Origin: a virus
DNA: 17,388 bases
Strand: one strand, 5' to 3'
Virus genome (UHGV): UHGV-1838449
Shown here: one piece after another, positions 2,364 to 9,699 of the stretch
How positions within the stretch are numbered: the stretch's first letter is position 1
How the letters are laid out: each line of letters starts with the position of its first letter
Position numbers and translations under genes: made by a program
Notes under the pieces: model-generated
Databases searched by the model: none
Told to the model about the DNA's origin: nothing
The model's input: the letters and a program-made list of their open reading frames with translations, nothing else

Positions 2364-2861
2364 TCACTCTCCTTTGATGCGAATGCCAGTGGTACTCATT
2401 CTCCTGATTTCCCAGAGCACACGAGGAACACCACCGTTTCCGACCGGATCGCGTTTACTCCGCAGGGCGACGCTTGATTCCGCCCAGCTTTTTCTTGGAG
2501 GAAGCTCTTTCACACGAACAAAACCAGCTGCGCGGAGAGATGCTCCTGATTCATCTGCCTGGGTGTACGTAATACAACGTTGATAACCCATAGCCTTTGC
2601 TGCCCGCCAGACAGCACCATAAAGCGCGCTGTTAGCGTTGCGTTCTCCTGTGGTACATGTGCGATTTACTTCAAGCGTTAATCCATCGTCCAAATGTCGT
2701 GCAACAGGTCGACCGGCTGTCGCCACACCTATCAATTCTCCGGCATCATTTCTCAGACCAATGCTGAATTTATGCCCCACCGGGGGTTTATTGTGTCGGT
2801 GATGTCTGGATATAAACGCCTTCGCAACACGAAGAGTAATCGGTGAAATCTGCACTCTCAC
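2364..2861 (-). CDS. Hypothetical phage protein (165 aa), C-terminus GIRIKGE
   Basis: GTG start overlapping the TGA of the upstream Ea22-like gene. The last 7 residues and the 26 bp encoding them are identical to the end of the Ea22-like gene. Confidence 0.5.
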   Translation of the reverse strand: MRVQISPITLRVAKAFISRHHRHNKPPVGHKFSIGLRNDAGELIGVATAGRPVARHLDDGLTLEVNRTCTTGERNANSALYGAVWRAAKAMGYQRCITYTQADESGASLRAAGFVRVKELPPRKSWAESSVALRSKRDPVGNGGVPRVLWEIRRMSTTGIRIKGE

Positions 2862-3541
2862 TCTCCTTTGATGCGAATGCCAGCGTCAGACATCATATGC
2901 AGATACTCAACTGCATCCTGAACCCATTGACCGCCAATCCCGTAATAGCGATGCGTAATGATGTCGATAGTTACTAACGGGTCTTGTTCGATTAACTTCC
3001 GCAGAAACTCTTCCAAGTCACCAGTGCAGTGCCTGATGACAGGAGTTTTCCCAGGATGGCGAACAACAAGAAACTGATTTCCGACTTCACGGACTTCGTT
3101 GCTTTCCAGTTCTGCAATGCGCTTACTTCCATCCGCGATTACTCCCTCGTAATATTCACGCTGCTCGTTGAGTTTTGATTTTGCTGCTTCCAGCTCAACA
3201 CGCAGTTTCCCTACCGTTAGCGCAATATCCTCGTTCTCCTGATCGCGGCGTTTTATGTATTGCTGGTTTCTTTCCCGTTCATCCAGCAGCGCCAGCACAG
3301 TAGCTGGACTGGCTGCGGCGATGAATTCAGCATTGGCCTGCTGTTCCATTTGGAAATCTTCATCGAAACCGCTTTCTGGATGCGCTCCTTCAATTCTGCA
3401 AATGGGAATATATCCAGCAGCCTCGCGATGAATTAGTGCATCATCACCATCAAATCGGCCCTCTCCATATTCTAGCGACCACACACCACACGTTGCTTTC
3501 TCTGCCTTTTCACGCAGTGCCTGGTAATTAATTTCGCTCAC
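2858..3541 (-). CDS. Ead/Ea22-like protein
   Basis: 227-aa ORF with N-terminus [21 protein letters not shown] and a central coiled-coil-like region, as I recall for Ea22-like proteins of lambdoid early-left operons. GTG start overlapping the upstream stop. Confidence 0.6.
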   Translation of the reverse strand: MSEINYQALREKAEKATCGVWSLEYGEGRFDGDDALIHREAAGYIPICRIEGAHPESGFDEDFQMEQQANAEFIAAASPATVLALLDERERNQQYIKRRDQENEDIALTVGKLRVELEAAKSKLNEQREYYEGVIADGSKRIAELESNEVREVGNQFLVVRHPGKTPVIRHCTGDLEEFLRKLIEQDPLVTIDIITHRYYGIGGQWVQDAVEYLHMMSDAGIRIKGE

Positions 3542-7654: not shown

Positions 7655-7981
7655 TCAAATAAGTGGTTTGCTGCCTAATTTCATTTTCTGGCGACCAACA
7701 CAAGTCACACCCATTTCACTGCGTGGCTTGCTGTACCATGTGCGCTGATTCTTGCGCTCAATACGTTGCAGGTTGCTTTCAATCTGTTCGTGGTATTCAG
7801 CCAGCACCGTAAGGTCTATCGGATTCAGTGCGCTTTCTACTCGTGATTTCGGTTTGCGATTCAGCGAGAGAATTGGGCGGTTAACTGGTTTTGCGCTTAC
7901 CCCAACCAACAGGGGATTAGCTGCTTTCCATTCGGCCTGTTTAGCTGCGCGACGTTCGCGGCGGCGTGTTTGTGCATCCAT
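7655..7981 (-). CDS. N: Antitermination protein N (lambda N-like)
   Basis: From the ATG at 7981 (AGGAG site) the protein reads MDAQTRRRERRAAKQAEWKAANPLLVGVSAKPVNRPILSLNRKPKSRVESALNPIDLTVLAEYHEQIESNLQRIERKNQRTWYSKP, near-identical to lambda N as I recall it, including the Arg-rich boxB-binding motif. Confidence 0.9.
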   Translation of the reverse strand: MDAQTRRRERRAAKQAEWKAANPLLVGVSAKPVNRPILSLNRKPKSRVESALNPIDLTVLAEYHEQIESNLQRIERKNQRTWYSKPRSEMGVTCVGRQKMKLGSKPLI

Positions 7982-8153
7982 CTTGATTCTCCTGTCAGTT
8001 AGCTTTGGTGGTGTGGTAGGTGGGAGACCCATTTCGACCTGCTTCGGCCGACTTCAATTCGGCAATAGTTCCGCAGGCCTCGCCGCTTTACGTGCGACAT
8101 ATTCCCATCCATGAACCCTTCACCACACCCCAAAGCCTTCTGCTTTGAATGCT

Positions 8154-8224: not shown

Positions 8225-8265
8225 AATATACCTACAGGTAAAACCCCTGTCTATACCTGTAGGTA
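8225..8265 (-). promoter_or_regulatory. pL promoter with OL operator sites
   Basis: Minus strand: -35 TAGACA (8253..8248), 17-nt spacer, -10 TATATT (8230..8225); downstream leader CATCAGCAGGACGCACTGACC matches the lambda pL leader. Two 12-bp palindromes TACCTnnAGGTA at 8229..8240 and 8254..8265 overlap the -10 and abut the -35. A looser TACCTG-N10-CAGGTA lies at 8287..8308. Confidence 0.6.
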
Positions 8266-8327
8266 AATAAAATTGATGTGAGAGTTTACCTGCTTGAATT
8301 TTCAGGTAATTAATTTTTTGGATTGAT

Positions 8328-8351
8328 ATAAAAAAGCCCGCTTTGCGGGCT
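8328..8351 (-). terminator. Intrinsic terminator ending the cI / small membrane protein transcript
   Basis: Minus strand hairpin AGCCCGC-AAA-GCGGGCT followed by TTTTTT (A-run 8329..8334 on plus), 12 nt after the stop at 8363. Confidence 0.7.
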
Positions 8352-8362
8352 GAAAGGAGATG

Positions 8363-8659
8363 TCAGAAGCTATTTGGATTGCTTGGCCATTGCGGCAATT
8401 TTGATTCTACTGGGGTGTGTTTGGGTTTGAGTCCGTTTAAGTAGTCAAGGCGCTCAATGGCGCATTTATACATAGCAATCTGCTCTGATGACATGTCGTC
8501 GTATGACATGCCTTTGAACTTTTTAATTATCGATTCTGCCTCATGTATAAGATTCTTCTTCCTCATGAGTTCAGCTGTATGCTTAGAGCTTACAGGAGAT
8601 AACTTTGCCCATATGAAGCAGATGATTACAACAGCGACTACTATGCCGGGTATAAACAT
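8363..8659 (-). CDS. Small single-pass membrane protein co-transcribed with cI (rex-slot gene, function unknown)
   Basis: ATG at 8659 with a GAGGA site; the ORF track's TTG start at 8677 overlaps the cI TGA. Reads MFIPGIVVAVVIICFIWAKL (N-terminal hydrophobic helix) then a roughly 75-aa charged domain. Gene is AT-rich relative to cI and followed by a strong terminator. Confidence 0.6.
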   Translation of the reverse strand: MFIPGIVVAVVIICFIWAKLSPVSSKHTAELMRKKNLIHEAESIIKKFKGMSYDDMSSEQIAMYKCAIERLDYLNGLKPKHTPVESKLPQWPSNPNSF

Positions 8660-8673
8660 TTGCTGCTTTATCC

Positions 8674-9360
8674 TCAAACTTTTGGCAGATCGTCCTGGTC
8701 TACGTACCTGGTGTGTTTCACAATAGCTGAAACAAAATGCATTTTATCAACTTCTTCAACAGGAAGAGTGATTGGGCGGTGATCACTGTTTATGCTACTA
8801 AACTGATAATCACCGTCTCTTGTTTTGTTCATGATCTTTATCATGTTGTGACCGTCTTTGGTCCTTACAAAGACTTCATCACCTGGATGTACTGGCGTAT
8901 TTGGTTCAATAACAACATATTCTCCTGACTGAATCCTTGGCCACATGCTGTCACCCTTAACCTTCAGACCGTAAGCATCTTTATCGCCGCTGTAGATGCT
9001 TAACCAACCGGATCTGAATTCAATCATATCCACTGAGCCATCAACTCCCAAAACGGCTTCACCAATTACCGGAACAAAACCCGCACGAACGTTACCCGCA
9101 AACTCAAGATGGTCCGTAGCTCCAGCTTTACCATCTGCAAGCATGTCCATCCATCCGCGTGGGAGATTAAAAGATTTTTCAATTAGTTCCATCATATCGT
9201 CAGCAATGCGTTTTTTTCCGCTTTTTCCTTCCGGATACAGCATTCTGGAAACGTATGATGGTTCCCTTTCTATTCGACGAGCCAACTCTGAGGCCTTTCC
9301 ATTACAGAATCGGTCTCTTATCTCTATCAGCCTTAGTCGTCTTTGTTCGTATTTATCCAT
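8674..9360 (-). CDS. cI: CI-type prophage repressor (HTH N-domain, LexA/S24-like autocleaving C-domain)
   Basis: 228 aa with an N-terminal helix-turn-helix region and a C-domain carrying the Ala-Gly site, GDSM Ser motif and downstream Lys typical of S24 peptidase-fold repressors. Divergent from cro across the operator region. Confidence 0.9.
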   Translation of the reverse strand: MDKYEQRRLRLIEIRDRFCNGKASELARRIEREPSYVSRMLYPEGKSGKKRIADDMMELIEKSFNLPRGWMDMLADGKAGATDHLEFAGNVRAGFVPVIGEAVLGVDGSVDMIEFRSGWLSIYSGDKDAYGLKVKGDSMWPRIQSGEYVVIEPNTPVHPGDEVFVRTKDGHNMIKIMNKTRDGDYQFSSINSDHRPITLPVEEVDKMHFVSAIVKHTRYVDQDDLPKV

Positions 9361-9468
9361 GATTTAATTCTATCTTTGATTACCTGCCGGTAAATAACCT
9401 ATGGGTATTGATTTGCTTTTTACCTACAGGTAAACTCATCTTATTCAACAACGGGAAGGAGATAGCAA
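9361..9468. promoter_or_regulatory. OR operator region with pR (plus strand) and pRM (minus strand)
   Basis: 12-bp palindrome-like sites at 9381..9392 (TACCTGCCGGTA), 9396..9407 (AACCTATGGGTA) and 9421..9432 (TACCTACAGGTA). pR: -35 TTGATT (9408..9413), 17-nt spacer, -10 TAAACT (9431..9436). pRM: -10 TAGAAT (minus, 9372..9367) only 6 nt before the cI ATG, implying a leaderless cI mRNA as in lambda. Confidence 0.6.
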
Positions 9469-9699
9469 ATGGAAGAACTCCGCTTGTATCTGAACTCCCT
9501 TTCACTGGAAGAGCAGAGAGAATTTGCCACCAAGTGCGGAACTTCTATCGGCTATTTGAGGAAAGCACTTAGCCGTAATCATGAATTGGGCGCAGCACTT
9601 TGTGTTCTGATTGAGAAGTTCAGCAATGGTGAAGTGACTCGCAAAGACCTTCATCCGGTTGATTGGGAAAGCATCTGGCCTGAATTAATGGCCGCTTAA
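9469..9699 (+). CDS. cro: Cro-like helix-turn-helix regulator
   Basis: 76-aa ORF with a GGAGAT site, helix-turn-helix-like segment TKCGTSIGYLRKAL, first gene rightward of OR. Confidence 0.7.
   Translation: MEELRLYLNSLSLEEQREFATKCGTSIGYLRKALSRNHELGAALCVLIEKFSNGEVTRKDLHPVDWESIWPELMAA

What the first reader, a model, noticed from the sequence alone, without database searches (positions are those of the whole stretch)
8328..8677. Small membrane-anchored protein co-transcribed with cI in the rexAB slot: candidate exclusion or abortive-infection gene
Directly downstream of cI on the same strand, with its start abutting or overlapping the cI stop, is a roughly 98-aa ORF with one N-terminal transmembrane helix (FIPGIVVAVVIICFIWA) and a charged soluble domain, ended by a strong terminator (8328..8351). 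This is the position where lambda carries rexA-rexB and other lambdoid phages carry different lysogen-expressed exclusion genes. The gene is visibly more AT-rich than cI, consistent with an acquired moron. I do not recognise the protein. A lysogen-expressed single-pass membrane protein here is a plausible membrane-acting defence effector against superinfecting phage.
Basis: partly seen in the sequence, partly recalled or inferred. Interest (0 to 1): 0.8.

Follow-up and report, generated by a model that had tools for sequence, protein, structure and literature searches.

The report
Small membrane protein riding behind cI
A real, conserved but uncharacterised 98-residue membrane-anchored protein sits behind the prophage repressor gene cI, and its relatives in P22-like phages sit where the exclusion gene sieA normally lies, which makes it a good but untested candidate for a new prophage protein that keeps rival phages out.

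Summary
On the minus strand a 98-aa ORF (8659..8363) starts 14 nt after the cI stop and ends at a strong terminator (8351..8328). Operators and PL follow, then N, so this is the rexAB slot of a lambdoid immunity region of the phage mEp043 type.

It is a real gene. It belongs to phrog_10450 (function unknown). Relatives at 30-43% identity keep the length, an extreme N-terminal hydrophobic helix and invariant residues (C66, W91-P92).

Charge distribution predicts N-out/C-in topology, with a helical hairpin in the cytoplasm. No Pfam, NCBIfam, PADLOC, PDB or BFVD match was found.

Two new facts bear on function:
- **Repressor linkage.** The 43%-identical relatives also lie directly behind an 85%-identical cI. 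The small gene is a hyperdivergent island: dN is about 0.55 against 0.095 for cI.
- **The sieA slot.** In nine P22-like loci the family lies between gene 16 and the tailspike gene, on the mnt strand. That is the sieA slot, and none of these loci carries sieA.

The best reading is a lysogen-expressed inner-membrane superinfection-exclusion protein. This is inferred from position and architecture and has not been tested.

The parts
8363..8659 (-). 98-aa ORF plus stop codon; member of phrog_10450 (function unknown)
   Evidence: phrog_10450 E 3.7e-54, full length; homologs
8603..8659 (-). codons 1-19: the only hydrophobic segment, an N-terminal membrane anchor with predicted N-out/C-in topology
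   Evidence: mean KD 2.84; 0 K/R before and 1-4 K/R after the segment in all 16 family members; helical in AF2
8384..8464 (-). codons 66-92, spanning the invariant C66-A67, L71 and the C-terminal W91-P92 motif
   Evidence: alignments A1 and A2
8671..8675 (-). GAGGA Shine-Dalgarno, 11 nt before the ATG, overlapping the cI stop codon; the same GAGGA sits in the cI 3' end in L037
8328..8351 (-). intrinsic terminator that ends the cI-ORF transcript before OL/PL
   Evidence: dG -12.6 kcal/mol, z -3.8
8674..9360 (-). cI repressor (S24 LexA-type), upstream gene of the same unit
9367..9394 (-). PRM-like promoter (TTTACC-16-TAGAAT); the -10 ends 7 nt before the cI ATG, so the cI mRNA is probably leaderless
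   Evidence: consensus match only
9381..9432 (.). OR operators (TACCTGCCGGTA, TACCTACAGGTA)
8225..8265 (.). OL operators (8229-8240, 8254-8265) overlapping the PL-like promoter 8253..8225 (-)
8286..8309 (.). inverted repeat TTACCTG-N10-CAGGTAA between the terminator and OL; conserved in L036 and L037; role unknown
7655..8032 (-). antiterminator N, first gene of the PL operon; marks the far side of the slot

Best explanation
The ORF encodes a small single-pass inner-membrane protein that the prophage makes together with its repressor.

Shown by sequence: it lies 14 nt behind cI, with its Shine-Dalgarno on the cI stop codon. There is no intervening promoter or terminator, and a strong terminator follows. 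Any PRM (or PRE) transcript of cI should therefore carry it.

Predicted: residues 1-19 insert as an N-out/C-in anchor. Residues about 24-76 form an antiparallel helical hairpin in the cytoplasm. The aromatic C-terminal tail (K-x-N/K-H-x-P ... W-P) returns toward the membrane surface.

Inferred function: superinfection exclusion at the cytoplasmic membrane, most likely interference with genome entry of incoming phages. This would be the job done by P22 SieA, HK97 gp15 or T4 Imm, rather than a Rex-type suicide response.

The inference rests on four points:
1. The family is found only in temperate enterobacterial phages, and only in lysogen-expressed accessory positions.
2. In P22-like prophages it occupies the physical place of sieA, convergent on the ejection-protein gene 16, in elements that have no sieA.
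3. It has the same extreme-N-terminal-anchor plus charged-helix build as the proven exclusion protein HK97 gp15.
4. It evolves about six-fold faster at the protein level than the adjacent cI, as expected for a gene in a phage-phage arms race.

My sub-confidences: real expressed gene about 0.9; membrane-anchored about 0.85; C-in topology about 0.7; some anti-phage role about 0.55-0.6; specifically an entry block about 0.35-0.4.
For: - **Gene reality and family.** phrog_10450 at E 3.7e-54. An exhaustive HMMER search finds full-length relatives at 33-43% identity, and a profile search finds 26 members. Invariant residues are S24, K34, I38, E40, A41, M56, Q60, C66, A67, L71, W91 and P92.
- **Operon anatomy.**
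- **Linkage to the immunity module.** All 25 IMG/VR copies carry the same OR-cI-ORF-OL block at 96.7-99.9%.
- **cI linkage at depth.** P0006 (L036) and P0007 (L037) lie 3-4 nt after a cI that is 84-85% identical, while the small protein is only 42% identical. Nucleotide identity is 52% in the ORF against 76-80% in cro, cI and OL. dN is 0.52-0.62 against 0.095.
- **The sieA slot.** P22 has 16 > < sieA - orf59a - mnt. Leavitt et al. 2024 place sieA between genes 16 and 9 and describe SieA as a 3-TM inner-membrane blocker of DNA injection. Family members sit there in L002, L003, L005, L034, L035, L038, L039, L040 and L041, and directly after Mnt in L039. No SieA or SieA motif is present in these loci.
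- **Topology.**
- **Structure.** AF2 pLDDT 78, helices 5-47 and 58-76.
- **The gp15 analogy.** The HK97 gp15 sequence has the same architecture.
- **The slot as a defence hotspot.** Owen et al. 2021.
Against: - No functional data of any kind exist. Every source names the protein 'hypothetical', and no paper mentions it.
- There is no homology to any known exclusion or defence protein. PADLOC gives nothing, Pfam and NCBIfam give nothing, and hhalign gives probability 0.7% against both SieA and gp15.
- Position is guilt by association. These slots also carry genes with other roles.
- In P22-like loci other uncharacterised membrane proteins sit in the same cluster and could be the real exclusion factors.
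- The fast evolution is equally compatible with relaxed constraint. dN/dS is about 0.3 with dS saturated.
- The topology rests on the positive-inside rule only. If the domain were periplasmic, the invariant Cys would suggest a disulfide dimer and a different mode of action.
- RefSeq usually does not even call the gene.
Confidence: 0.45

Rival explanations
1. Abortive-infection effector. The protein stays inert in the membrane until an infecting phage triggers it. It then oligomerises and depolarises or permeabilises the membrane, killing the cell before phage release, as RexB does or as a holin-like toxin would.
For: Same slot as rexAB and bstA, both abortive-infection systems. It is a small single-TM protein with an amphipathic basic domain. 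In some P22-like loci it neighbours weakly holin- or hemolysin-like small proteins.
Against: It is a single 98-aa gene with one TM and no sensor partner. RexB has four TMs and needs RexA (established knowledge). There is no PADLOC hit. In P22-like phages it replaces SieA, an entry blocker and not an abortive-infection system. The neighbouring genes vary, so there is no conserved two-component system.
Confidence: 0.15
2. Lysogenic-conversion or regulatory factor that is not primarily anti-phage. A small membrane protein binds and modulates a host inner-membrane protein (transporter, sensor kinase, or the FtsH/HflKC protease). This would change host physiology or tune prophage maintenance and induction, and it is co-expressed with the maintenance repressor (cI or Mnt) for that reason.
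For: It is consistently placed directly behind a maintenance repressor (cI in the window, L036 and L037; Mnt in L039). The soluble domain is predicted to be cytoplasmic. Many bacterial small single-TM proteins are regulators of membrane proteins (general knowledge). Rex itself has been linked to the lysis-lysogeny switch (cited).
Against: In L038 the gene stands alone between the tailspike gene and gene 16, with no repressor gene nearby, so it does not need a repressor partner. A housekeeping regulatory role fits poorly with six-fold faster protein evolution than cI and with presence in only about 1% of E. coli genomes per clade.
Confidence: 0.25
3. Not a functional gene: a chance ORF in the spacer between cI and its terminator, or a decaying remnant.
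For: PGAP leaves it unannotated in most RefSeq genomes. The spacing from GAGGA to the ATG is long, at 11 nt. There is no Pfam family.
Against: The ORF is intact in 25 of 25 IMG/VR copies, with conservative changes only. Full-length homologs at 30-43% identity keep 12 invariant residues. dN/dS is about 0.3. Homologs have canonical Shine-Dalgarno sequences. The antisense 89-aa ORF acquires stops in close copies and is not kept in L037.
Confidence: 0.03

Closest known systems
Phage P22 SieA (superinfection exclusion A; phrog_7745)
   Same: A prophage-expressed inner-membrane protein. Relatives of the window protein occupy SieA's exact genomic place, convergent on ejection-protein gene 16, between genes 16 and 9, on the mnt strand. 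SieA's conserved motif is also predicted to be cytoplasmic.
   Different: No sequence relation (hhalign probability 0.7%). SieA is 162-164 aa with 3 TMs and the motif FxRYPxEAxxFNK, against 98 aa, 1 TM and no such motif. In the window the gene sits behind cI of a lambda-like siphovirus, not in immI.
Phage lambda RexA/RexB
   Same: Same slot: downstream of cI, co-transcribed from PRM/PRE, ended by a terminator before OL/PL. Membrane-associated and lysogen-expressed.
   Different: Rex is a two-gene system, with cytoplasmic RexA plus 4-TM RexB (established knowledge). Here there is one 98-aa single-TM gene, and no PADLOC, Pfam or PHROG similarity.
Phage HK97 gp15 (moron-encoded superinfection exclusion protein; Cumby et al. 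2012, cited; function recalled from that paper, which is not held)
   Same: Same architecture: the hydrophobic helix starts at residue about 3, there is no K/R before it and K/R after it, followed by a charged alpha-helical tail. It is a small stand-alone gene with its own terminator.
   Different: 62 aa against 98 aa. No sequence similarity (hhalign probability 0.7%). gp15 sits among the tail genes, not in the immunity region.
BstA (prophage BTP1 and relatives)
   Same: Encoded directly downstream of the cI repressor, presumably shares its promoter, and has its own terminator (Owen et al. 2021).
   Different: BstA is described as localising to sites of phage DNA replication and acting by abortive infection (abstract). 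It is not a small single-TM protein. No PADLOC hit here.
Lactococcal Sie2009-type proteins and T4 Imm (from memory; not tested here except through Pfam)
   Same: Small proteins with an N-terminal membrane anchor that block DNA injection. Sie2009 genes lie in the lysogeny module next to the repressor.
   Different: Different hosts and lineages. No Pfam hit to any superinfection-immunity family at E <= 1.

Membership tests
phrog_10450 (uncharacterised phage protein family) | Full-length match to the family profile (98 positions) | tested here: met
   E 3.7e-54, residues 1-98 on profile positions 1-98. N7 ORF14, P0009, P0011 and P0026 hit the same profile.
phrog_10450 (uncharacterised phage protein family) | Shared architecture: extreme N-terminal TM, S-x-x-H, L-I-x-E-A, C-A-x-x-R-L, C-terminal W-P | tested here: met
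   Alignments A1 and A2; hydropathy.
Lambda RexAB | Two adjacent genes, rexA (about 279 aa, soluble) and rexB (about 144 aa, 4 TM) | tested here: not met
   A single 98-aa ORF fills the whole interval from cI to the terminator, and it has one hydrophobic segment.
Lambda RexAB | Sequence homology to RexA or RexB | tested here: not met
   No PADLOC, Pfam, NCBIfam or named PHROG hit.
Lambda RexAB | Located downstream of cI in the PRM transcript, with a terminator before OL | tested here: met
   This is position only; transcription was not measured.
P22 SieA | Sequence homology, or the motif FxRYPxEAxxFNK | tested here: not met
   hhalign probability 0.7%. The motif is absent from the window protein and from the family-bearing loci.
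P22 SieA | Three (types B and C: four) transmembrane helices, 162+ aa | tested here: not met
   One hydrophobic segment, 98 aa; SieA features.
P22 SieA | Gene between P22 genes 16 and 9 in P22-like prophages | tested here: met
   Met by the P22-like clade of the family, 9 loci. Not applicable to the window copy itself, which sits behind cI.
P22 SieA | Blocks DNA injection by superinfecting phage | not testable with these tools
   Needs plating, K+ efflux and DNA-entry assays.
HK97 gp15 | Sequence homology | tested here: not met
   hhalign probability 0.7%.
HK97 gp15 | Single N-terminal TM anchor plus a charged helical tail | tested here: met
   gp15 sequence compared. This is a resemblance in build only.
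Lysogen-expressed accessory ('moron') gene | Expressed from the repressed prophage | not testable with these tools
   Inferred from sharing the cI transcription unit. RT-PCR, RNA-seq or proteomics of a lysogen is needed.
Lysogen-expressed accessory ('moron') gene | Deviant base composition relative to its neighbours | tested here: not met
   GC 41.4% vs 43.2% for cI; GC3 47% vs 38%.

The most novel reading that the evidence does not exclude
phrog_10450 is a previously unrecognised, portable one-gene superinfection-exclusion module of enterobacterial temperate phages. It has colonised both classical exclusion slots, the cI-N (rexAB) slot of lambdoid siphoviruses and the 16-9 (sieA) slot of P22-like podoviruses. 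It works from the cytoplasmic face of the inner membrane and is diversifying in an arms race with incoming phages, with protein divergence about six-fold that of the adjacent cI. Because it serves phages with different tail types, its target would be a shared step of genome entry, or a host inner-membrane factor, rather than a phage-specific ejection protein.
Probability: 0.35. Interest if true: 0.65.

Novelty: new variant of a known kind. Interest (0 to 1): 0.5.

Why it matters
If the function is confirmed, this would add a new, very small and easily handled protein family to the short list of inner-membrane superinfection-exclusion proteins. For most of these (SieA, Imm, gp15) the mechanism is still unresolved.

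Its presence in both a siphovirus immunity region and the podovirus sieA slot would give a natural experiment on what step of DNA entry is common to both.

Practically, the gene is present in about 1% of complete E. coli genomes per clade, and also in Salmonella, Citrobacter and Enterobacter. RefSeq mostly does not annotate it, so prophage-borne resistance of this kind would be invisible to current defence-finder pipelines and relevant to phage-therapy host-range prediction.

If it has no anti-phage role, it is simply one more small hypothetical prophage gene.

Tried and rejected
- **TTG start at 8677 (104 aa, overlapping the cI stop).** Rejected in favour of the ATG at 8659. Homolog N-termini, their Shine-Dalgarno sequences and upstream stops and the ATG/GTG polymorphism all point to the ATG.
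- **Antisense 89-aa ORF 8457..8726 (+).** Rejected. Stops appear in two variable codons among close copies, and the frame is not kept open in L037.
- **Cleavable Sec signal peptide or lipoprotein.** Considered and judged unlikely. No member has a positively charged n-region, and there is no lipobox.
- **i-spanin-like protein (N-terminal TM, helical domain, conserved Cys).** Considered and rejected on predicted topology and on location outside any lysis cassette.
- **Homology searches that found nothing.** Pfam, NCBIfam, PADLOC, a PDB sequence profile (best E 0.38 to designed helical filaments), Foldseek against BFVD (best E 0.57) and against PDB (best E 2.5).
- **Searches that could not be run.** The afdb50 fold library was not available. 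The HK97 gp15 paper (PMC3430355) is not held.
- **Literature.** 14 papers mention mEp043 and none was found to discuss this gene.
- **H27 plus C66 metal site.** Considered but not supported. In the hairpin model the two residues are not expected to be adjacent. This is inference; no coordinates were inspected.
- **Co-variation of the family protein with the gp16 C-terminus in P22-like loci.** Not attempted, because linkage alone would produce a correlation.
Full report
**1. What is in the sequence**

Read on the minus strand, the region has the anatomy of a lambdoid immunity region.
- cro lies on the plus strand at 9469-9699.
- Two 12-bp operators of the form TACCNNNNGGTA are at 9421 and 9381. 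Two more are at 8254 and 8229. That is 4 matches in the window against 0.05 expected by chance.
- A PRM-like promoter is at 9394..9367.
- cI runs 9360..8674. It is 228 aa, hits Peptidase_S24 at E 1.4e-17 and hits PHROG 'transcriptional repressor'.
- The small ORF follows, then an intrinsic terminator at 8351..8328. The terminator has a 7-bp stem with 6 GC pairs and a U6 tract, dG -12.6 kcal/mol, z -3.8 against shuffles.
- A PL-like promoter at 8253..8225 overlaps the left operators. N runs 8032..7655.

The whole block is 98.8% identical to phage mEp043. It is present in 52 of 5426 complete E. coli genomes, always on the chromosome. The small ORF therefore sits where lambda carries rexAB.

**2. 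The ORF and its start**

The mechanical ORF starts at a TTG (8677) that overlaps the cI stop. The biological start is almost certainly the ATG at 8659, giving 98 aa.
- Every diverged homolog starts M/V-[YFW]-I-[PS].
- Each homolog has its own AGGAG or GGAGG 4-6 nt upstream, and several have in-frame stops just before it.
- Among close copies the only change at the start codon is ATG to GTG.
- In the window a GAGGA lies 11 nt upstream and overlaps the cI TGA. The same GAGGA lies in the cI 3' end of locus L037.

**3. It is a real gene**
- Across 21 distinct haplotypes of the OR-to-OL block, built from 25 IMG/VR contigs, the ORF is never interrupted. It has 7 synonymous-only variable codons and 8 with conservative replacements (K/R, K/Q, H/N, S/T, D/E, I/M, L/P).
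- The protein hits phrog_10450, a family of unknown function, over its full length at E 3.7e-54.
- An exhaustive HMMER scan of 1.84 billion cluster representatives finds only 11 proteins at E <= 0.001. These include full-length relatives at 33-43% identity. A profile search of 5.8 billion proteins finds 26.
- All are 97-114 aa once mis-called N-terminal extensions are ignored.
- They share invariant S24, K34, I38, E40, A41, M56, Q60, C66, A67, L71, W91 and P92.
- The overlapping antisense ORF (8457..8726, +) is not conserved.

**4. Architecture**
- There is one hydrophobic segment, at the very N-terminus, with mean Kyte-Doolittle value 2.84. No other 17-residue window exceeds 0.6.
- In all 16 aligned members there is no Lys or Arg before this segment and 1-4 in the 15 residues after it. 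The positive-inside rule therefore predicts N-out/C-in, with the soluble domain in the cytoplasm. This is an inference; no dedicated predictor was available.
- AlphaFold2 with the family alignment gives pLDDT 78. It shows a long helix (5-47) that continues out of the membrane, a loop, a second helix (58-76) and an extended tail carrying the conserved K-x-N/K-H-x-P ... W-P motif.
- Foldseek against BFVD and PDB, and an HMM search of PDB sequences, find nothing significant.
- Pfam, NCBIfam and PADLOC find nothing.

**5. Where relatives live: the informative result**

*Behind cI.* The two nearest diverged clades are P0006, and P0007 from the Enterobacter cloacae complex. Both lie 3-4 nt downstream of a cI gene and upstream of OL and N.
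- Their cI proteins are 84-85% identical to the window's cI, but the small proteins are only 42% identical.
- Nucleotide identity is 76-80% across cro, cI and OL/PL but 52% across the small gene.
- dN is 0.52-0.62 for the small gene against 0.095 for cI, with dS saturated in both.
- The small gene is therefore a hyperdivergent island inside an otherwise conserved immunity module.

*In the sieA slot.* A second clade is found in E. coli, E. fergusonii, Salmonella and Citrobacter, and in 57 of 5426 complete E. coli genomes. It lies in P22-like (Lederbergvirus) phages and prophages.
- In nine loci (L002 = phage N7, L003, L005, L034, L035, L038, L039, L040, L041) it lies between the ejection-protein gene 16 and the tailspike gene. 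It is on the strand opposite the late genes, usually abutting the 3' end of gene 16, and on the same strand as mnt. In L039 it comes immediately after Mnt.
- A tenth locus, L004, has it beside gp7 and gp20 homologs in a degraded element.
- This is precisely where P22 carries sieA. Leavitt et al. 2024 describe that position as characteristic of sieA in P22-like prophages. SieA itself is a 3-TM inner-membrane protein that blocks DNA injection.
- None of the family-bearing loci contains SieA by PHROG, tblastn or motif search.
- The family is not homologous to SieA (hhalign probability 0.7%).
- The other genes in the mnt-strand cluster vary from locus to locus, so the family member behaves as a stand-alone unit.

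**6. Interpretation**

Shown: this is a conserved gene for a small protein with a single N-terminal hydrophobic helix. It is physically part of the cI transcription unit. It is restricted to temperate enterobacterial phages and is always in positions expressed from the prophage strand.

Inferred: it is made in lysogens, it is inserted N-out/C-in in the inner membrane, and it serves superinfection exclusion.

The exclusion reading is favoured for four reasons:
1. Both slots are the classical homes of such genes. The cI-N interval is a recognised hotspot holding rexAB and bstA (Owen et al. 2021), and the 16-9 interval holds sieA.
2. The family substitutes for sieA in P22-like prophages.
3. HK97 gp15, a proven exclusion protein according to Cumby et al. 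2012 (cited; paper not held), has the same build: helix from residue about 3, no preceding K/R, charged helical tail. It has no homology to this family.
4. Protein evolution is much faster than in the adjacent repressor.

I rank an entry block above a Rex-like abortive mechanism because there is only one small single-TM gene with no conserved partner, and because its positional counterpart SieA is an entry blocker. A non-defence role, modulating a host membrane protein or prophage maintenance, cannot be excluded and receives about a quarter of the probability.

**7.

The coordinates, ORF length, helix, terminator and slot are all correct. The AT-richness argument is not: GC is 41.4% against 43.2%, and GC3 is higher in the small gene. 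The better signature of 'otherness' is the divergence island described in section 5.

**8. Novelty**

The gene is deposited as 'hypothetical protein' in mEp043 and in many genomes, and it is clustered in PHROGs without a function. RefSeq usually does not annotate it at all. No paper in the searchable library discusses it.

The kind of thing, a prophage-expressed membrane protein in an exclusion slot, is well known. The protein family, and its occupation of both the rex slot and the sieA slot, appear not to have been described. I therefore class it as a new variant of a known kind, with the function unproven.

Noticed in passing
window 8363-8659; L033 (E. coli MB19) 2683-3374: RefSeq/PGAP leaves this conserved 98-aa gene unannotated. 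There is a 690-bp feature-less gap between N and cI in strain MB19, and only about 2 of the 52 complete E. coli genomes with the locus show a 'hypothetical protein' under the match.
   Followed up: partly
window 8366-8659 compared with L036 2420-2713 and L037 6001-6294: The small gene is a hyperdivergent island: 52% nucleotide and 42% amino-acid identity, flanked on both sides by 76-80% identical immunity-region DNA (cro, cI, OL/PL). dN is about 6 times that of cI. Diversifying selection, allele swapping and relaxed constraint were not distinguished.
   Followed up: partly
window 8286-8309 (- strand): Inverted repeat TTACCTG-N10-CAGGTAA between the terminator and the 12-bp OL operators. It uses the operator half-sites at a wider spacing and is conserved in L036 and L037. 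It could be a third, atypical operator or a hairpin; in L037 it is the only hairpin after the small gene.
   Followed up: no
L002 4008-4848; L005 2196-2886; L040 1530-2367; L035 4201-4782: In P22-like prophages the genes between mnt and the family member are themselves variable, uncharacterised, lysogen-strand genes: phrog_4293, phrog_24865, phrog_6324 (weak holin/hemolysin-like hits), phrog_2990, phrog_5893 and phrog_23516. Several have a TM segment. They are further candidate accessory or exclusion genes.
   Followed up: partly
L004 5975-7721: One family member (P0009, 114 aa) lies at the edge of a degraded P22-like element, directly next to Hcp (T6SS_HCP) and a Tlde1-domain gene, which are type VI secretion effector genes.
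   Followed up: no
window 9360-9394 (- strand): The -10 hexamer (TAGAAT) of the PRM-like promoter ends 7 nt before the cI ATG. As in lambda, the cI message from PRM would be leaderless, while the small gene downstream has a normal Shine-Dalgarno.
   Followed up: no
window 8679: A G/T polymorphism among close copies changes the last cI residue (V228F). In the Enterobacter-type modules cI is 3 residues longer (231 aa), so the cI C-terminus, stop codon and Shine-Dalgarno junction with the small gene is itself variable.
   Followed up: no
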